Virus record (IMG/VR): IMGVR_UViG_3300010155_000004
Span: 1-37,078 of that record
Strand: one strand, 5' to 3'
Source of the DNA: a virus
Lineage: Duplodnaviria; Caudoviricetes
Length of the DNA stretch: 37,078 nucleotides
Position 1 is the stretch's first letter, and the number at the start of each line of letters is the position of its first letter. The translations under genes were made by a program, and so were the position numbers. Below, piece by piece: positions 11,552-27,882 of the stretch. Below the pieces are notes generated by a model. It was not told the DNA's origin. It was given only the letters and a program-made list of their open reading frames with translations, and made no database searches.

Positions 11552-11827
11552 TTAAGATTTTTGGCGTTTTTTCACTTTATCCAAATGGTTGCGGTGAAAT
11601 TGGCCACGTTGCAATATAACTGATAAATGTCTTCGAAACTCTGCTGATGCCCAAAGTAGTTGCCACATCGATTCACGGGCATCGACATCTTCTGGGTTTG
11701 TGTCTCTCCATGCTTCGAAATAATTCTTTTCAAGTGTTTCAAAAGTTTCACTGACAAGCGGATCTGCTAGGATTGCTTTGGCATGTTCTGCTTTTTTGAT
11801 TGCTTCTTGGGCTGTTGGTTCTGTCAT
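11552..11827 (-). CDS. Small conserved head-module protein
   Basis: A..IL.DPLV.E.F..LE......W..T...D...RE..W pattern, of the type usually directly downstream of portal. Confidence 0.7.
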   Translation of the reverse strand: MTEPTAQEAIKKAEHAKAILADPLVSETFETLEKNYFEAWRDTNPEDVDARESMWQLLWASAEFRRHLSVILQRGQFHRNHLDKVKKRQKS

Positions 11828-13998
11828 TGGTTTCTTTCATCGTAAAGTAATGGTGCAGCAATGGCCGGTGGGATTAAACCCCAATATGCTAATTGAGATG
11901 GTCCACCTGGAACCTGTCTGGTTGGCCCAAATTTGGGATCAACCTCAACACCTTTTGGTAATCTCTTTTGTGGTTCACCTTTTTTCGCTAATGTTCGTCC
12001 TGGTCCCAAAAACCCATGTTTCTTATATACTTCTCTTACACTCATGAACTGATCTAGATTCATCCTTGGTAAATACTGTAAACCTGGAAACATTGCTTCA
12101 TGGGGTGAAAGCCGGTGTCTCATAGGGTCCCATGCACCCCACTGTTGGTTATACATACCCCTACCCTTACCGGCTATAGATGCAACAGTATCCAGTGCTT
12201 CTTTATAGTTGTCTGGCATTGACTCTACATACTTCGGTTCTTTAATCCATTTGACTTTCTTTAAATAATTTGGAATATCTGGGTTAATCTTCCCGTTTGC
12301 CCGTCTGTAGATCATCCTTTTCTTAGTCTTAGAACCGGGTGCTTGTTTTTTAGCTTGATTCAGGCCGACATTCCCGATGTAACTATATGATCCTGGTTGA
12401 CTTTGGAGATCAACAAAATCTCTAACTGGTTGTGCTGTTTGTATTGGTGGGTTGCCAGATGCAATATCCCGGTTCCATTTATCTACTAGGAATTTCTTTG
12501 ATGCATTTGCACCACTACTGTTTGAATTACGTAACCATAAAACCACAATATGTCTGTCAACTGGTGCAACTTGGGCACCCATTGTGTCCTGCCACACACC
12601 CGAAAAGGATGATGTTTTAAAGCTCAGACCATCAATTTGAGTCGATATTCTTTCAGAATATTCAACCCATGTTTCTTTAGAGCTTTTCCTGAACCATTTA
12701 GGTTTGTCTTTGAACATCTGTGCGAATTCAGCAATCCTTGAATAGTCTTGTGTCCCAACAAATCCAAGTTGGCCTTTACCAATTCCTAATTTTGATCCAG
12801 CCTTTTTACTGTAATATGCTCTTATAGCTTCTTCTTTGTTCTTTTTTATAGGGGTGCCGTCTGCTGATGTCACTAGTTCACCATCAGGACCCCTGATTGT
12901 TGATTCTCTTCCTGGAATTCCTTTATTTGGATTGGGTGCTTGATATGGGGTTCCTGTAAAACCGGCATCATTGAAAACCCTGTCCGCATTAAAATCATCA
13001 TACTTCCATGGAACCATCTCACCAAAATCCTTAATATCTTTCATGGATGTTGCCCTAACCTTGCCCACTGCCATCAGGTTTGGAGTCAATTTATTCTGTG
13101 GTGATGTTAGTCCAAACATAAATTGAGTGAAGATCTGTTGGTCAGTCATCTGCTTTTGGGATGGTTGGACCGATCTCATCATTTTGTCATGAATCTTCCA
13201 GTAGTCTGTTGGTTTTTTAAACATCGACTTGTTACCGGGTGTGAACCATTCAGGACCAATATCAATGCCCTGTGAATTAATGAAATGCATATCGTAGTAT
13301 GTGAACTTTCCATCAATTCCACCGGGTATTTTTAGAGTTGATCCATCCCTCATTTTATATTCGACTATAGAATTCAACCAATCCTTTTGGTTCTTGGGTC
13401 CAAAGTCATCAACACCAAAAGTTTTGCCAAAGTTATGGAAATCTTCACCGGTCCAATTACTAGGTTCTTTACCTTGAAACGTGAGTGGCACATCAGACCC
13501 ATACTTAAAAGATCCGGTTACTTCAGGTGGTCTGTCTAATAAAACACCCGGTGGTTGTTTCATACCGAATGTTTCAGGCATAGGCAGCAGACCTGCTGGG
13601 GTGGTCCTAGTTTTGTTTAATGCATTCTTAGCAAGCCTTGCAACATCAATGGGTGCTGATGCTAACGTGCCTAATGCGCCTAATGCTGGAAGTGCTGCAT
13701 CTGCTGATTCCAGTCCAGACCAAATCGTTGATGCTGCTGCTTCAGGGTATTGTCCTTCCTGGAATTGCTGTTGTGCATTCTCCCATTCCTGTGCCGACCT
13801 AAGTGCTGACCTTCGTTGACCTTCGACTGGGGTCATATCCTTTGCCAAACCAACCAAACCCTGTTGAACTGCAGGACCTGCATCCTGTGGAAGTGTTGTG
13901 TTCCAGGTGTTTGCTCCCATCCAATCTGTGATGTCATCCCAGATGGTTGGGGCACTGCCTTGTGTTAAGACAGATCGATTACGGTCATACGTGGTCAT
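11824..13998 (-). CDS. Large protein with an HhH-GPD DNA glycosylase-like domain, inserted in the head module
   Basis: 724 aa. Motifs GLTSPQN, GLSFKTSSF (HhH), VAPVDRH (catalytic Asp position) and QQWGAW. Low-complexity N-terminal leader. ATGA overlaps at both ends. Confidence 0.6.
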   Translation of the reverse strand: MTTYDRNRSVLTQGSAPTIWDDITDWMGANTWNTTLPQDAGPAVQQGLVGLAKDMTPVEGQRRSALRSAQEWENAQQQFQEGQYPEAAASTIWSGLESADAALPALGALGTLASAPIDVARLAKNALNKTRTTPAGLLPMPETFGMKQPPGVLLDRPPEVTGSFKYGSDVPLTFQGKEPSNWTGEDFHNFGKTFGVDDFGPKNQKDWLNSIVEYKMRDGSTLKIPGGIDGKFTYYDMHFINSQGIDIGPEWFTPGNKSMFKKPTDYWKIHDKMMRSVQPSQKQMTDQQIFTQFMFGLTSPQNKLTPNLMAVGKVRATSMKDIKDFGEMVPWKYDDFNADRVFNDAGFTGTPYQAPNPNKGIPGRESTIRGPDGELVTSADGTPIKKNKEEAIRAYYSKKAGSKLGIGKGQLGFVGTQDYSRIAEFAQMFKDKPKWFRKSSKETWVEYSERISTQIDGLSFKTSSFSGVWQDTMGAQVAPVDRHIVVLWLRNSNSSGANASKKFLVDKWNRDIASGNPPIQTAQPVRDFVDLQSQPGSYSYIGNVGLNQAKKQAPGSKTKKRMIYRRANGKINPDIPNYLKKVKWIKEPKYVESMPDNYKEALDTVASIAGKGRGMYNQQWGAWDPMRHRLSPHEAMFPGLQYLPRMNLDQFMSVREVYKKHGFLGPGRTLAKKGEPQKRLPKGVEVDPKFGPTRQVPGGPSQLAYWGLIPPAIAAPLLYDERNQ

Positions 13999-16160
13999 TG
14001 AGGTGGGCCTTGGGATGGTGTTTGAGGTGGCATTTGAGGTGGACCTTGGGGTTGCATCTGTTGTTGCATCTGCATCTTTGCCATTTCAGTTTGTTGACGG
14101 TTCACTTCCCGGTCCCTTTCCATCATGGCTTTGATGTTGGCCTGATCAATTGTGGTGTTGTGTTTCGACTCCAGTTCTGAAATCTTCAACTGTAATTCTG
14201 CTTCGAATTGATCACGTTTTATGTCTTCCTCCCTAAGCATCTTTTCCCGGTCCAGTTCAAGCTTTGCCTGATCATTGATCATGTCTGATTGAACCTTTGC
14301 CATTTGGGCCTGAACAAACAGTTCATCAGGACTTGGTTTGGGTTCTTCAGGGGGTGGAGGTTTATAGTTTGCCGGATCTGAAAAGAACTGATTCACATCC
14401 TTATATCCACCTAAATTCAACATCTTTCCAAGGGTCTGATAATACTGTCTAAGATTGACTAATGGACCTTCTGGACCCATTTCCTTGATCAGTTGTTCCT
14501 GCTTTTGAAGCATCGTTGAAAGGACTGTCAATTTTTCTGCATCTGTTCCACCACCCAATGGAATGTCAACCATCACATCCATATTTGAATCCCAGTGACG
14601 GGGGTCCATTGGAACCCATTGGTTGCGTAATCGGATTACTTTTGCCCTGTCCTGATATCTGCAAACCAGTCCCAGAACACCCTTATACAGTGGCTTGAGT
14701 GCAGTTTCTGCAAAGATCCTGGCCAGCAATTCCATGTGTGCTTGTGCTGCCTTAAATGTTGCTTCGATGGCAGCCCGGCTTGATGACTGCAGACTTTCTG
14801 CATCCATTCCCTGTGATTGTTTGGTGATGCCTGTACGACTGGATTTGATTTCATCAAGCAGACCCAAAATTGGAAGTGCTTGCTGTCCTACAAATGGCAT
14901 TGAAAGTTGAGTCACTGCTGCAGGATTCCTGGCTCTTATAATTCCACCTGGTTCCGTATTCATGACATCTTCAAGGGAGCATTGTCCCTCTATGGCCAGC
15001 AATCTGGGTGTGACTGCCATGGACAAACTTTCCATGACATTTCTCAAAATATAGGACTTAATTCTTTGTATGTCTGCAACGATGTCTGTGATTGAAGATC
15101 CAACAGCAGCATGTGGTTCAGGATCTGGTGTCATCAGAACAAATGGTTTGTAATCACATGGTTCGTTGATAATTACATGATGCTTGTTTCCAACACAAAT
15201 GAATCTACGTAGTTCAGAAATGCCGTCCTGATCCACATCCAGATTCATGAAACATTCGATATACAGGACCTTCCTGGATGCCGGTTCTACGTTTGTTGGA
15301 CCTCTATTGTGTGCTTCAGTGTGTCTGCTGACCCATTCATTGTTGACATCGAATTCATCATCAGTTCCAGCATATTCTTCAAGTTCTTCAATGTCATGAC
15401 CAAGTGCCTGGAGTTCTGAAAGGGTTTTGAAGGATCGGTGTCCTACAACTGCTGCTTCATCAATGTTCTTTGCTCTACGATCAATGATGAATTCTTCAGG
15501 TGGCAGTGCTTCAACCCGGATTCGGCCAGAATTGGTTCGTCTTTTGATTGTTGCATCATAAAGGGGTTGCCCACCGTCCCCTTCTAGTTGGAATGCGTCC
15601 ACCCCTTCGACACCATCAGCACCGGCCAGATGTTGCAATTGTGCTTCATCCAGCCCGGTATACTTCGATGTTGAAACATCTTCAGATTTTTCGTACCAGT
15701 ATTTCAGGACACCAGTTCTTTTGATCAGTGCATCCTTAAATGCAGCAAAGAAATGACTGAAAGAATTATTGTTTTCTTCAAGGATGATGTGGTTGACATA
15801 GTCAGTGGCTTGTTCTGCCATTGCCACATCTTCAGGTCCCCTTGGCGTAAATTGCATGATCTGCTTTGAACCAAAAAAGGTCCGCATCAGAACAGGCATT
15901 ATTGAATTTACGGTGTCCCTGACATCGTAGCTGACAACGGATGATCGACCATCTTCATCCTGTTTGGGAAGGTCCCCTGAATAGTATTCAGTGGATGTGA
16001 CCCTGTCTTCGGATAACTCATCAACGTAGTCGATTGCATCATCAAGCAGGTGCCCAACATAGGCATCTACTTCGGTTTCATCCATGGGTTCATCACCATC
16101 GAATTCGGCTGGAACCCCGGATTCATAACCTGATTCTTCCGGTATTTCTTCTGCTGACAT
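13995..16160 (-). CDS. Portal protein
   Basis: 721 aa. EYYSG, GRSSVVSYDVRDTV..IMP.LMR.F, AEQATDYVN, FKDALI...G..K, PPEEF and Q.IK...LRN motifs. Gln/Pro-rich C-terminal barrel. Confidence 0.95.
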   Translation of the reverse strand: MSAEEIPEESGYESGVPAEFDGDEPMDETEVDAYVGHLLDDAIDYVDELSEDRVTSTEYYSGDLPKQDEDGRSSVVSYDVRDTVNSIMPVLMRTFFGSKQIMQFTPRGPEDVAMAEQATDYVNHIILEENNNSFSHFFAAFKDALIKRTGVLKYWYEKSEDVSTSKYTGLDEAQLQHLAGADGVEGVDAFQLEGDGGQPLYDATIKRRTNSGRIRVEALPPEEFIIDRRAKNIDEAAVVGHRSFKTLSELQALGHDIEELEEYAGTDDEFDVNNEWVSRHTEAHNRGPTNVEPASRKVLYIECFMNLDVDQDGISELRRFICVGNKHHVIINEPCDYKPFVLMTPDPEPHAAVGSSITDIVADIQRIKSYILRNVMESLSMAVTPRLLAIEGQCSLEDVMNTEPGGIIRARNPAAVTQLSMPFVGQQALPILGLLDEIKSSRTGITKQSQGMDAESLQSSSRAAIEATFKAAQAHMELLARIFAETALKPLYKGVLGLVCRYQDRAKVIRLRNQWVPMDPRHWDSNMDVMVDIPLGGGTDAEKLTVLSTMLQKQEQLIKEMGPEGPLVNLRQYYQTLGKMLNLGGYKDVNQFFSDPANYKPPPPEEPKPSPDELFVQAQMAKVQSDMINDQAKLELDREKMLREEDIKRDQFEAELQLKISELESKHNTTIDQANIKAMMERDREVNRQQTEMAKMQMQQQMQPQGPPQMPPQTPSQGPPQ

Positions 16161-16242: not shown

Positions 16243-16271
16243 TTGACATTACCCATTGGGTAATATAATCT
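16243..16271 (+). promoter_or_regulatory. Sigma70-type promoter with a palindromic operator in the spacer
   Basis: TTGACA at 16243-16248. TATAAT at 16264-16269 (15-bp spacer) or TAATCT at 16266-16271 (17 bp). Perfect palindrome ATTACCCA-T-TGGGTAAT at 16248-16264. A-tracts upstream. Confidence 0.85.
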
Positions 16272-16311
16272 ATAAATCCAGTCAACAAAACCCTGAAACG
16301 GAAAGGCAAAT

Positions 16312-16479
16312 ATGTTTAGAGAAAGAAATTGGGATGAGACAGTCGAACAGTATGAAGCTAATCAAGAGCATCAAAATATGATTGAGATGCAGAAAATTGC
16401 GGATCGGATTTATGATGCTGGTTGGGTTGGTGGAGTTCCTGAAGATATTCTGGATGAAGTTTATTATACATCATTTTAA
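16312..16479 (+). CDS. Small acidic protein (55 aa), not in the ORF track
   Basis: MFRERNWDETVEQYEANQEHQNMIEMQKIADRIYDAGWVGGVPEDILDEVYYTSF. Preceded by GAAAGGCAAAT, the same leader as the next ORF. Confidence 0.75.
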   Translation: MFRERNWDETVEQYEANQEHQNMIEMQKIADRIYDAGWVGGVPEDILDEVYYTSF

Positions 16480-16482
16480 TTA

Positions 16483-16546
16483 GCCGAAACACCCCTTCGG
16501 GGGTGTCCATCAGGATTGATCCCCTGATGCTGATGATGGCAGATCC
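16483..16546 (+). ncRNA. Hammerhead ribozyme, type II
   Basis: GCC-GAA-ACACCCC(TTCG)GGGGTGT-C-CATCAGG(ATTGATCC)CCTGATG-CTGATGA-T-GGC. All core nucleotides are present, with a GUC cleavage triplet at 16505-16507 and a GATC/GATC loop-tail pseudoknot. Confidence 0.88.
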
Positions 16547-16570
16547 ATTTAATTATTCAGAAAGGCAAAT

Positions 16571-16804
16571 ATGGACCCCAGAACAAAAGTGATACCAACA
16601 GGTTCACCGGTGTTGATCCACTACAACAACAATCAGGATTCCAGGAAAGTGTTCCTGGATCATCCACATTTCTTTGATCCAAAGGATATGGAATACTCCA
16701 TGCTTTTCAAATCCTGGTCAGTGACCAACATCAGCAAATCGGTCTATTCCTATGAAGTAGATCCTAAATATGTCAAGGACAGGAAATTGATGGAAGTAGC
16801 ATGA
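16571..16804 (+). CDS. Hypothetical protein (77 aa)
   Basis: RBS CAGAAAGGCAAAT. ATGA overlap with the HTH gene. Confidence 0.75.
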   Translation: MDPRTKVIPTGSPVLIHYNNNQDSRKVFLDHPHFFDPKDMEYSMLFKSWSVTNISKSVYSYEVDPKYVKDRKLMEVA

Positions 16805-17130
16805 AACCAATGACTGATCTGAAAAGAATCAGGACTGATCTGGGACTCAACCGGGCTGAAATTGCCCGGAAATGCAGGGTTCCTTATAGAACCTGGATCA
16901 AATGGGAGGATGGGGAAAGAAGGACACCAGAATATGCATGGGTTCTTCTGGCATGGTACATGATGGGTTCAGGTTCAATTCAGTTTGAATTGGAGTACCT
17001 TGAAAAGCTGATGAAGGATCAGAAACTGTTTGATGGACTAACTGCAGTCAAACTGATCCAGGAAAGCATCAAACAATCTGAACATTACGTTTCAAGGCCT
17101 GATTCCATGGTTGAGACATCCCTGAAATAA
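16801..17130 (+). CDS. XRE-family HTH regulator (Aca-like)
   Basis: LKRIRTDLGLNRAEIARKCRVPYRTWIKWEDGERRTP. Last gene of the small operon; converges on and overlaps the terL 3' end. Confidence 0.85.
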   Translation: MKPMTDLKRIRTDLGLNRAEIARKCRVPYRTWIKWEDGERRTPEYAWVLLAWYMMGSGSIQFELEYLEKLMKDQKLFDGLTAVKLIQESIKQSEHYVSRPDSMVETSLK

Positions 17131-18493
17131 TCCCGACTGTATTGCTGAATGTCAGCACAAAACTGTCTGCAAAGTCTGGGCTGCCCCTATGGCCCAGTCT
17201 TTTTTTCATTTCATCCTTTGATTCCAGTTTGATTCTTCCGGTGCTGTCATACGTATAACGTGGACTGCAAAGCTCAAACATCAGTCTGTTGTCCCTTGGA
17301 ATCTTACAGTGCTTCTTTTCAAACCAATCCTTTGCTTCATGCCACAATTCGGCCCTTAGATTCTTATAGAGCCCACTGAGTGATGCAGATTCACCGGTGT
17401 TGATGCCCTGAACCGGCAGCCCTAATTCAAGCCCTCTATCAACGATTGCTGCACCTATTCCAATTACATCACAACAAATGGCTTTAGGTTGTTTCAAGTC
17501 TTCACATGCTTTGTCATATTCCTTTGAAACTGCACCCATTAGCTGCATTGTGTCCAGCTTTGCCCATGATTTGATTGGTTCCATGACAGTGTTTCCCTGT
17601 CTTTTGCAAAGTGCTGAACGGTCTTGGCCAAAGCGTGCAATGTCCAAACCCCATATGATGGGACCTTCTGATGGTTCCACATCCCGGTCGACTGCACTTT
17701 CAATCAATGCATTTGAAATCAAAGTATCATCTGCAGTTTCAGGAAATTCACCAAGAACCCTGATCCTAAAAGTATTGGAATCCCTGCCATACCGGTCTTC
17801 CATTTCCTGGATGTAATCTTTACTGACCCTCAATGAATCTTCACAGGAAACTGTCATTGTGTACCATTTATCTGATAATCGGCCAAATGCATCAAAAAAG
17901 AATCCTTCAGGACGGGTAGGATTTCCCAAACACACCAAGGTTGCATCATCTGCTGATAATGAGCCACCGGCTGCATCTATCACTGAATTGTCAATTGAAG
18001 ATGCTTCATCAATAATTAAAAGAACCCTGTCTGAATGGGTGCCCTGAAGACTTTCTGGGGTTTCCTTTCGACTGGTACGACAACTAATGAATGATCCACT
18101 GGGGTCTGATTTGAGTGTGATCCGGTCTGAATAGGTTTCAAAAAGATTCTTCAAAACCGGTGGCAGCCTTATCATTTGACTCTTCAATTCTGCAAAGAGT
18201 GCATCAAATAATTGGCTGCTGGTAGGTGCTGTTATGACTGTCTTTTGAGGATAAAAACAGATGATGTTATGGATTGCAATCCAGGCTGCACATGTCGATT
18301 TTCCGACACCATGACCTGATTTTGCTGCACATAACCTTCTACCAGATTTCGGATTGAAATCATTTTTGGGCAAGGCTGCTTCCATCAAGGTTGCTTGCCA
18401 CTGGTCAGGGGTCTGCTTTAGTACATCACGTACAAATTCAACAGGTCGATGCCTATATCGACCAATAAAGTCAATAAATGTCTTTTCTGCCAT
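17069..18493 (-). CDS. terL: Terminase large subunit
   Basis: Walker A SGHGVGKS, TAPT..QL, LQG.H, Walker B LIIDEA, GNPTR, and nuclease motifs GLDIARFG.D and SPD.ADS. Confidence 0.97.
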   Translation of the reverse strand: MAEKTFIDFIGRYRHRPVEFVRDVLKQTPDQWQATLMEAALPKNDFNPKSGRRLCAAKSGHGVGKSTCAAWIAIHNIICFYPQKTVITAPTSSQLFDALFAELKSQMIRLPPVLKNLFETYSDRITLKSDPSGSFISCRTSRKETPESLQGTHSDRVLLIIDEASSIDNSVIDAAGGSLSADDATLVCLGNPTRPEGFFFDAFGRLSDKWYTMTVSCEDSLRVSKDYIQEMEDRYGRDSNTFRIRVLGEFPETADDTLISNALIESAVDRDVEPSEGPIIWGLDIARFGQDRSALCKRQGNTVMEPIKSWAKLDTMQLMGAVSKEYDKACEDLKQPKAICCDVIGIGAAIVDRGLELGLPVQGINTGESASLSGLYKNLRAELWHEAKDWFEKKHCKIPRDNRLMFELCSPRYTYDSTGRIKLESKDEMKKRLGHRGSPDFADSFVLTFSNTVGIISGMSQPWNQALKRNVQIV

Positions 18494-23810: not shown

Positions 23811-23956
23811 GCTATTTCCTCTTCTCTACCACACCACAAACACTTTGGTGTGATTTCAATCTTCACATAATAATTAAGCAGCACCCATATGATGCCGATC
23901 ACAAAACTGGTTAGTATTGCCAGCAGTGTCCATGCTACATATGTCATCCACATCAT
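23807..23956 (-). CDS. Small membrane protein (49 aa)
   Basis: RBS GAGAAAGGCA before ATGATG. One TM helix followed by CLWC. Confidence 0.6.
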   Translation of the reverse strand: MMWMTYVAWTLLAILTSFVIGIIWVLLNYYVKIEITPKCLWCGREEEIA

Positions 23957-24125
23957 TGCCTTTCTCCTGTTCCTGTTCACCGGTGCAGCACTCAAAATTC
24001 GGGCATCCGCAATGAGTGCAATGGTAGTGACCATGACAATAGACTAAGCCAATTCTATGACAGAACCGGCACTGTTCCTGTTGGAGTGTCTTCATTTTCC
24101 ACCTTTTCGATCTTATAGGTGTCAA
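23874..24125 (-). CDS. Cys/His-rich hypothetical protein
   Basis: CRFC...CHGHYHCTHCGCPNFECC. The true start is probably MKTLQQ. Confidence 0.55.
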   Translation of the reverse strand: MTPIRSKRWKMKTLQQEQCRFCHRIGLVYCHGHYHCTHCGCPNFECCTGEQEQEKGNDVDDICSMDTAGNTNQFCDRHHMGAA

Positions 24126-26980: not shown

Positions 26981-27833
26981 CAGCAGATTCCATCATTGGT
27001 ACACCACCCTTAACAGTGATCTGAACTCTTGGTTTCCCATGAATCCATGCATTCCATGCAACAACCATCATTGCCAAACGGTTGGATTGACTGAAGTGGA
27101 CCCCACTTTTTGATTGTTGGACCACTCTCACAAAAAGTGAGTGTGTTGCAGTTCCGGGTTTGCCGGTGCAGTCTGCAAATTCCTTCAGAAATTCTGTTGC
27201 AAATTCCAGTGTTGTATCACCCAGTTCGTTTGCCTTGAATAGAAAGCAACCGAAAACTGCACTGGGCACAATTCTGAACGATTTCTGAATGGTGGCAGCC
27301 CTTTCAACCAAAGGGTTCACCATTGGATGTTTTGCAGCATACTGAATTGTCTGTTCAATCGTTTCCGACTTTGTCAACCCAGTGGACACATTCTGCATTT
27401 TTGTGTCAGTCGAAACCCTGTTTACAGTTGCCTTAGTCAGTTTGCCATCATTATAAAGGCACACTAACCGGATGGCTGCTGACATGATTTTGGGTTTTTT
27501 GTAACCCAATACTGTTAATGCATCCCTTGAAGATCGACCCCTTCCCAGATCCAGGAATTTGAAATCTTCAACACTACAGTTTTCAACCACCACAAATGCT
27601 TGTGTGGTTCCTGACTGTTTAACTGCAGCCAGACGATGTTGACCATCCTGAAGATTCCCATTTGAATCGATTCGGATCATGCTGGAATTCTGTGCCCAAT
27701 TTCCTTTTGACATGTCTGCTGCATATCGGTTCACAAAGGATTGGGATAAATCCCGGTTGCTGACATTCGTTGCCAGCATTGCTTCGGCCTGATTAGGACC
27801 AATGAATTGTGTACTGATTTTATTTTCTGTCAT
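26973..27833 (-). CDS. ParB/Srx-like domain protein
   Basis: A..ML..N..NR.L....V..YA.DM..G.W......I.....L.DGQHRL.AV. Confidence 0.8.
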   Translation of the reverse strand: MTENKISTQFIGPNQAEAMLATNVSNRDLSQSFVNRYAADMSKGNWAQNSSMIRIDSNGNLQDGQHRLAAVKQSGTTQAFVVVENCSVEDFKFLDLGRGRSSRDALTVLGYKKPKIMSAAIRLVCLYNDGKLTKATVNRVSTDTKMQNVSTGLTKSETIEQTIQYAAKHPMVNPLVERAATIQKSFRIVPSAVFGCFLFKANELGDTTLEFATEFLKEFADCTGKPGTATHSLFVRVVQQSKSGVHFSQSNRLAMMVVAWNAWIHGKPRVQITVKGGVPMMESADV

Positions 27834-27882
27834 TGTTGCCTTTCTGGTATTTGACAGTTAATAGTTTTGATACGCTTAAAGC

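What the first reader, a model, noticed from the sequence alone, without database searches (positions are those of the whole stretch)
16483..16546. Type II hammerhead ribozyme inside a small early operon
Seen: stem III ACACCCC/GGGGTGT with a UUCG loop, GUC at 16505-16507, stem I CATCAGG/CCTGATG, core CUGAUGA plus one extra U, stem II GGC/GCC before GAAA, and a 4-bp GATC/GATC pseudoknot between loop I and the 3' tail. It starts 4 nt after the stop of the 55-aa ORF and ends just before the next RBS. Known: this is the hammerhead consensus, and hammerheads do occur in phage intergenic regions, mostly with unknown function. Inference: self-cleavage after C16507 splits the mRNA. The first cistron is left with a 3' hairpin, and the downstream ORF+HTH message gets a 5'-OH end. 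This could uncouple effector levels from repressor levels.
Basis: partly seen in the sequence, partly recalled or inferred. Interest (0 to 1): 0.8.

Follow-up and report, generated by a model that had tools for sequence, protein, structure and literature searches.

The report
Portable hammerhead ribozyme in phage cassette
A hammerhead-ribozyme sequence of a known phage type sits between two small genes of a gene-swapping phage operon, where it is predicted to cut the message into two hairpin-capped pieces that likely decay separately; it is an ordinary member of a common family.

Summary
16482-16548 matches Rfam Hammerhead_II (51.9 bits, cut-off 37, E 5e-8). Close relatives keep core, stems II/III and pseudoknot unchanged while stem I changes compensatorily. 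The extra U is not odd: about 1,500 IMG/VR stretches carry this subtype, and an extra U there is reported to speed cleavage. The operon is not shown to be early. It is an inverted cassette with its own predicted promoter, palindrome and terminator, between terL and portal of a temperate phage. Of 8 related layouts, 6 carry one hammerhead, next to 5 unrelated upstream gene families; 2 lack it, one in a phage whose portal is 98.7% identical over the part held. Best reading: a portable, constitutive mRNA-processing site, not a switch tied to particular genes. Cutting is not predicted to open the ribosome site. The window's copy has a competing misfold. No cleavage or expression data exist. The scan has reported this kind of element on other DNA hundreds of times. 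New member of a known kind; low interest.

The parts
16483..16545 (+). Type II hammerhead ribozyme, extra-U subtype with loop I/3'-tail pseudoknot
   Evidence: Rfam RF02276 51.9 bits; covariation in stem I
16483..16485 (+). Stem II 5' strand (pairs with 16538-16540; 3 bp, open-ended)
   Evidence: sequence; invariant in 5 of 5 aligned rows
16489..16506 (+). Stem III hairpin, 7 bp with UUCG loop; becomes the 3' end of the upstream product
16505..16507 (+). GUC triplet; predicted cut 3' of C16507
   Evidence: hammerhead consensus; not shown by experiment
16508..16529 (+). Stem I hairpin, 7 bp with 8-nt loop; becomes the 5' end of the downstream product
   Evidence: 3 pairs changed on both sides in relatives; 3' product fold
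16530..16537 (+). Core CUGAUGA plus one extra U between A9 and G10.1
   Evidence: subtype frequency; activity precedent
16542..16545 (+). Pseudoknot strand pairing with loop I 16518-16521 (4 bp)
   Evidence: invariant in close relatives; loop-tail match 96 of 114 versus 22% when partners are shuffled in the subtype
16243..16271 (+). Predicted sigma-70 promoter: -35 at 16243-48, 17-nt spacer, -10 at 16266-71
   Evidence: read by eye; key positions invariant in 8 of 8 aligned leaders; the consensus scan did not call it
16248..16264 (.). 17-bp palindrome (8-bp arms) in the promoter spacer; predicted operator
   Evidence: single copy in the window; core kept in 8 of 8 leaders (most loci were found with this motif)
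16301..16314 (+). RBS block, copy 1 (14-nt direct repeat)
16312..16479 (+). ORF55, first cistron, no known family
16560..16573 (+). RBS block, copy 2
16571..16804 (+). ORF77, family present in all 8 layouts, no known family
16801..17130 (+). Xre-type HTH protein (109 aa), last gene, overlapping the end of terL by 62 nt; predicted autorepressor
17176..17197 (+). Intrinsic-terminator-like hairpin closing the cassette
17069..18493 (-). Terminase large subunit (flank)
13995..16160 (-). SU10-type portal protein (flank)

Best explanation
This is a type II hammerhead motif that is predicted to cut the cassette mRNA after C16507 as it is made, and it likely works as a portable, always-on processing site that gives each piece its own protected end. 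The upstream piece would end in the stem III UUCG hairpin with a 2',3'-cyclic phosphate. The downstream piece would begin with a 5'-OH directly in the stem I hairpin, 52 nt ahead of a standard RBS block. Only a 3-bp stem II and a 4-bp pseudoknot join the halves, so the cut is likely irreversible. The effect would resemble the engineered RiboJ insulator: whatever gene is swapped in upstream, the downstream genes, including the HTH gene, get the same stabilised leader. Shown: sequence, family match, covariation, gene swapping, presence/absence. Inferred: cleavage, transcription unit, stabilisation, HTH autoregulation.
For: Rfam match. 109 of 109 cells paired and 3 stem I pairs changed on both sides among 5 rows with 4 distinct ribozymes; slid controls 31-48% paired. 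All 13 core positions of the Perreault filter are met, and 14 of 18 consensus hammerheads tested there were active. Extra U raised trans-cleavage 3-4-fold in a viroid hammerhead (review PMC3705267). Both products fold with terminal hairpins in 6 of 6 layouts. The ribozyme-plus-RBS block is kept next to 5 unrelated upstream and 4 downstream gene families. Same stop-ribozyme-SD layout across the subtype: 61 of 72 start within 5 nt of a stop, 87 of 114 have an SD-like site within 25 nt. RiboJ raised mRNA about 2-fold and protein 2-10-fold in E. coli (PMC6206723). Phage hammerheads between genes cleave in vitro and in E. coli.
Against: No cleavage or transcript data: the one RNA run gave a single 151-nt contig away from the ribozyme. 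2 of 8 layouts lack it, so it is dispensable. In the window's copy the 5' strand of stem I can slip onto the core: -23.5 versus -23.4 kcal/mol, probability 0.05-0.68 at 37 C depending on flanks; stem II probability falls to 0.01-0.06 with 40-100 nt flanks (pseudoknot and tertiary energy not modelled). Protection by 5'-OH is recalled for RNase E/RppH hosts and was not found in the library; the host is unknown.
Confidence: 0.55

Rival explanations
1. Translation-gated cutting: a ribosome ending on the upstream stop codon covers the first bases of the ribozyme (stem II 5' strand and GAAA), so the cut rate depends on how busy the first cistron is.
For: The ribozyme starts -1 to 3 nt from the stop in all 6 layouts. 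In the subtype 61 of 72 start within 5 nt and 43 of 72 at -1 or 0, against 3.2% of random positions. In the window, the stop region can also pair with the core.
Against: Tight gene packing explains the spacing equally well; the control used random, mostly coding, positions; many of the 72 are related phages. The stop-region/core pairing is not kept in relatives. Ribosome dwell at a stop is short (own knowledge).
Confidence: 0.12
2. The cut shortens the life of one piece: the downstream message with the HTH gene decays faster, keeping the predicted repressor low relative to the first gene product.
For: The HTH gene is last and downstream of the cut wherever both are on the locus. Promoter palindrome plus terminal HTH is the acr-aca layout. 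Processing into transcripts of different stability has been proposed (PMC6765202). glmS-type decay of a 5'-OH product by RNase J is recalled.
Against: The 3' product starts inside a 7-9 bp hairpin with no free 5' base, which usually protects. The gene set upstream of the cut is not constant, and two layouts do without the ribozyme.
Confidence: 0.13
3. Mostly a passenger and recombination joint: the ribozyme-plus-RBS block spreads because its conserved DNA serves as homology for swapping small genes; cutting is tolerated but matters little.
For: Upstream genes change exactly at the ribozyme's first base; L214 and L223 share the downstream genes but not the upstream one; L222 lacks the block between the two RBS repeats. 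The phage encodes an Erf-like annealing protein and an exonuclease.
Against: Homology alone would favour unchanged sequence, yet stem I varies compensatorily while the core stays fixed, which points to selection on the RNA fold.
Confidence: 0.15
4. The window's copy is inactive or a chance look-alike.
For: Competing slipped stem I unique to this copy.
Against: E 5e-8; native stem I is complete before the core is transcribed and is the predicted fold at that stage; the copy differs from relatives by paired changes and a paired one-base-pair deletion.
Confidence: 0.05

Closest known systems
Type II hammerhead ribozymes with loop I/3'-tail pseudoknot, Rfam RF02276 (Perreault et al. 2011, PMC3088659; parts 1-6 of 8 of the text read)
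   Same: Topology (stem II open, I and III closed), full core, short stem II, pseudoknot of at least 4 bp, position between small phage genes.
   Different: One extra U between A9 and G10.1 and a 3-bp stem II, which Rfam's model treats as a 2-nt insertion; a single copy per operon rather than a cluster.
Hammerheads with an extra base between A9 and G10.1 (CChMVd plus strand; De la Pena and Flores 2001, seen only as cited in passages of PMC3705267)
   Same: Same insertion site; U there was reported to raise trans-cleavage 3-4-fold.
   Different: Viroid RNA, natural extra base is A, role is genome processing.
acr-aca operons, e.g. acrIC7-acrIC6-aca10 (PMC9410881; passages read)
   Same: Small genes followed by a small HTH gene, with an odd-centred palindrome over the promoter; both palindromes have a CA-N-TG centre; Aca10 is the top sequence hit of the single protein (E 0.017).
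   Different: No Acr identified; HTH likeness is not significant (profile E 0.08, Foldseek E 0.36; 434 repressor scores as well); binding untested; no ribozyme described in such operons in the one search made.
RiboJ insulator (engineered; PMC6206723, passages read)
   Same: Self-cleavage leaves a fixed hairpin-bearing 5' end ahead of an RBS regardless of upstream sequence.
   Different: Synthetic, placed after a promoter; here natural, between cistrons, and the upstream piece is itself an mRNA.

Membership tests
Hammerhead ribozyme type II (RF02276) | Score above the family's gathering threshold | tested here: met
   51.9 bits versus 37
Hammerhead ribozyme type II (RF02276) | Core C3 U4 G5 A6 N7 G8 A9, G12 A13 A14, A15.1-U16.1, H17 | tested here: met
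   read against the filter
Hammerhead ribozyme type II (RF02276) | Stems I and III closed by loops, stem II open; pairs next to the core intact | tested here: met
   G10.1-C11.1 forms if U16537 is unpaired
Hammerhead ribozyme type II (RF02276) | Structure conserved with compensatory change | tested here: met
   3 pairs of stem I changed on both sides; stems II, III and pseudoknot never vary in the close set
Hammerhead ribozyme type II (RF02276) | Loop I/3'-tail pseudoknot | tested here: met
   4 bp possible here; covaries across the subtype, 96 of 114 versus at most 34% in 1000 partner shuffles
Hammerhead ribozyme type II (RF02276) | Mg-dependent self-cleavage after H17 | not testable with these tools
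   no raw RNA reads
acr-aca operon | Terminal small HTH gene | tested here: met
acr-aca operon | HTH belongs to a named Aca family | tested here: inconclusive
   Aca10/Aca2 rank high but E 0.017-0.49
acr-aca operon | Inverted repeat over the promoter bound by the HTH | tested here: inconclusive
   palindrome present and conserved; binding not testable
acr-aca operon | Upstream genes encode anti-CRISPR proteins | tested here: inconclusive
   no informative Pfam or PHROGs hit for the non-HTH cassette proteins; not filed as acr-aca
Moron (self-contained accessory unit in a temperate phage; definition recalled) | Own promoter and terminator, inserted between conserved morphogenesis genes, absent from relatives | tested here: met
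   absent from the 7 terL-portal intervals printed for relatives at 64-68% terL identity; integrase and repressor
Moron (self-contained accessory unit in a temperate phage; definition recalled) | Expressed from the repressed prophage | not testable with these tools
   no host or lysogen found

The most novel reading that the evidence does not exclude
The ribozyme is a natural insulator part in a shuffled, HTH-autoregulated anti-defence cassette, and its cutting is gated by the ribosome that terminates on the abutting stop codon, so translation of the first gene sets how much stable repressor-bearing message is released.
Probability: 0.08. Interest if true: 0.65.

Novelty: new member of a known kind. 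Interest (0 to 1): 0.27.

Why it matters
The purpose of phage intergenic hammerheads is still open (PMC6765202). This element adds no new chemistry, but the locus is a tidy natural experiment: one ribozyme per short operon, near-identical phages with and without it, and unrelated genes swapped around it. That makes the question 'does the cut stabilise, destabilise or insulate?' easy to test with a small reporter. The lack of a known host limits it.

Tried and rejected
Extra U as a rare or crippling variant: rejected (about 1,500 stretches; faster cleavage reported). Searches of Perreault's supplements for this subtype found nothing, but the alignment file is a cut, gapped PDF and one .doc file was unreadable, so whether the 2011 dataset holds it is open. 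Cleavage-gated RBS opening: rejected; opening cost changed by -0.4, +1.3, 0.0, -1.7, -0.1 and -1.0 kcal/mol in the six layouts. Ribozyme always after cistron 1: rejected by L220. Pairing of the stop region with the core as a conserved switch: not kept in relatives. Expression: run X1 held 0.06 of the words and gave one 151-nt contig at 16731-16881; no evidence either way. Host: promoter motif absent from GTDB genomes; the 25 terL relatives there are at most 48% identical. Function of ORF55/ORF77: no Pfam, PHROGs, NCBIfam or PADLOC hit, no Atlas hit for ORF77, 5 unnamed homologues for ORF55. The promoter scan missed the promoter. L210 matched the promoter motif but has no similarity to the five query proteins and was dropped. 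A search for the moron definition gave one paper, seen only as a listing.

Full report
Observation. Rfam gives one gathering-level hit in the window: Hammerhead_II, 16482-16548, + strand, 51.9 bits against 37, E 5.1e-8. A loose core pattern matches once, against 0.01 by chance. The predicted cut is 3' of C16507. Three bases separate the ORF55 stop from the ribozyme, and 14 separate the pseudoknot from the RBS block.

Setting. The window is a temperate tailed phage: integrase, repressor, Erf-like annealing protein, exonuclease, head and tail genes. Nearly all genes are on the minus strand. A three-gene unit on the plus strand (ORF55, ORF77, Xre-type HTH) lies between terL and the portal gene. 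It has a predicted promoter read by eye (-35 at 16243-48, -10 at 16266-71; the scan tool did not call it), a 17-bp palindrome in the spacer that occurs once in the window, two identical 14-nt RBS blocks and a terminator-like hairpin at 17176-97. The 7 terL-portal intervals I printed for relatives at 64-68% terL identity have no such unit (7 of 18 such loci). A generic hammerhead scan of 105 terL loci hit only the window's duplicate L001 and L039. So the unit is an accessory cassette. 'Early' is not shown; expression from the prophage is as plausible.

Relatives. Searches with the HTH protein, the ribozyme pattern and the promoter motif gave the same cassette in other phages. One search examined the window and 15 loci. 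Four were duplicates, L210 was unrelated, and L211, L218 and L221 repeat other layouts. That leaves 8 layouts. Six carry exactly one hammerhead (window/L221, L209, L214, L215, L220, L223) and two carry none (L213, L222), confirmed by Rfam. L209 and L223 end before the HTH gene; L209's contig continues in L082. It follows cistron 1 in 5 of 6 and cistron 2 in L220. The gene just upstream belongs to 5 families with no blastp similarity at E 0.01, and the gene just downstream to 4. L222, whose portal is 98.7% identical to the window's over the 319 residues held, goes from the first RBS block straight into the ORF77 family. The -35 element, palindrome core and -10 key positions are invariant in 8 of 8 leaders. 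Most of these loci were found with that motif, but four of the contigs were first found with the HTH or the ribozyme.

Covariation. In 5 aligned rows (4 distinct ribozymes) all 109 cells pair; three stem I pairs change on both sides, one on one side, and the window lacks one pair on both strands. Slid controls pair at 31-48%. Stems II, III and the pseudoknot never vary here, so this set says nothing about them. The wider subtype does: the pattern with the extra U matches about 1,500 IMG/VR stretches (estimate from 6 of 64 parts; 123 loci returned). Of 116 distinct rows (114 from the scan, plus the window and L084), 111 form stems I and III of at least 4 bp. A loop-tail match of at least 4 bp is present in 96 of 114, against a mean of 22% and a maximum of 34% when loops and tails are re-paired at random. 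These sequences are related in groups, so the counts are not independent events. The extra U is therefore a common feature. A review reports that U at this position raised trans-cleavage of a viroid hammerhead 3-4-fold (PMC3705267, passages; the original paper was not read).

Mechanism. By known chemistry the cut leaves a 2',3'-cyclic phosphate and a 5'-OH. The type II permutation means each product keeps a hairpin: stem III at the 3' end of the first-cistron message, stem I at the very 5' end of the downstream message. Folding shows this in 6 of 6 layouts. The RBS block starts 19 nt after stem II in all six, and cutting changes its opening cost by -1.7 to +1.3 kcal/mol with no steady direction, so it is not an RBS switch. 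With the gene swapping, this fits a portable constitutive processing site that standardises and probably stabilises the downstream leader, as the engineered RiboJ does (about 2-fold mRNA, 2-10-fold protein; PMC6206723, passages). That a 5'-OH blocks RppH/RNase E decay is my own knowledge; two searches did not find it in the library. Perreault et al. already proposed that such ribozymes cut phage transcripts into gene-sized pieces and showed cleavage in vitro and in E. coli; 14 of 18 consensus examples were active.

Results against. The element is dispensable in 2 of 8 layouts. In the window's copy the 3' strand of stem I repeats the first six bases of the core, so the 5' strand can slip onto the core at nearly equal energy (-23.5 versus -23.4 kcal/mol; probability 0.05-0.68 at 37 C and 0.02-0.96 at 15 C depending on flanks). 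In the relatives the isolated ribozyme's best fold is the native one, though with some flanks their stem I also drops (to 0.02 in L214). With long flanks stem II is rarely formed in any copy. These models omit the pseudoknot and core contacts, and the native stem I is finished first during transcription. Cleavage may be partial. There are no usable transcript data and no host.

The repressor idea. The HTH protein has an N-terminal Xre fold (pLDDT about 90 over residues 11-50). Aca10 is its best PDB sequence hit (E 0.017) and second in Foldseek (E 0.36), with Aca2 next, but 434 repressor scores as well with a profile. The palindrome shares its CA-N-TG centre with the Aca10 site. Autorepression is likely but untested, and none of the small genes has a known function. 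I do not file the cassette as acr-aca.

Stop-codon spacing. Of 72 subtype members with enough flank, 61 begin within 5 nt of an upstream stop and 43 at -1 or 0, against 3.2% of random positions. A terminating ribosome would cover the start of the ribozyme. Compact gene packing explains this as well, so I keep ribosome gating as a minor rival and as the novel case.

Prior sightings. The scan holds 615 findings on hammerheads in phage operons, including type II copies with one extra core base between a stop and an SD. None was on this genome or a look-alike stretch. These notes are unchecked and are not counted as support.

Verdict. A genuine, conserved type II hammerhead; probability about 0.9 that it cleaves to some extent, 0.55 for the stabilising-insulator role. 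New member of a known kind. Interest 0.27.

Noticed in passing
window 16243-17197 and L209, L213, L214, L215, L220, L222, L223: The whole cassette is a gene-shuffling array: fixed promoter with palindrome, repeated RBS block, many unrelated 54-107 aa ORFs without known family, a constant ORF77/69 family and a terminal HTH; layout recalls acr-aca or anti-defence operons.
   Followed up: partly
L209, L214, L215, L223 (before a later RBS block): A second recurring spacer part: a 6-bp GC-rich hairpin with a UUCG loop just before the RBS, present in 4 of 8 layouts; perhaps a stabiliser or nuclease site.
   Followed up: no
window 16523-16536: The 3' strand of stem I duplicates the first six core bases, allowing a slipped inactive fold unique to this copy.
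   Followed up: yes
L039 reverse strand 7203, 7601, 8131: A relative at 48% terL identity has three canonical type II hammerhead motifs, each just after a stop and before an SD, in an inverted small-gene block upstream of terL; one passes the Rfam cut-off.
   Followed up: partly
L220 3316-3504: A second small HTH-like gene (63 aa) sits just before the conserved HTH gene in one layout.
   Followed up: no
window 17069-17197: The HTH gene overlaps the 3' end of terL by 62 nt on the opposite strand and the cassette's terminator lies inside terL; late transcription would run antisense through the cassette.
   Followed up: no
window 23951-23964 and 27831-27844 (minus strand): Two more near-copies of the cassette's RBS block precede genes in the recombination region.
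   Followed up: no
window 11824-13998 (minus strand): A 724-aa ORF with no family hit lies between portal and scaffolding genes; relatives also carry 500-770 aa variable ORFs between terL and portal.
   Followed up: no
Rfam RF02276 alignment: The model's printed stem II pairs a consensus G with a G, one column off the canonical C11.1-G10.1 pair; the family's structure line may be offset.
   Followed up: no
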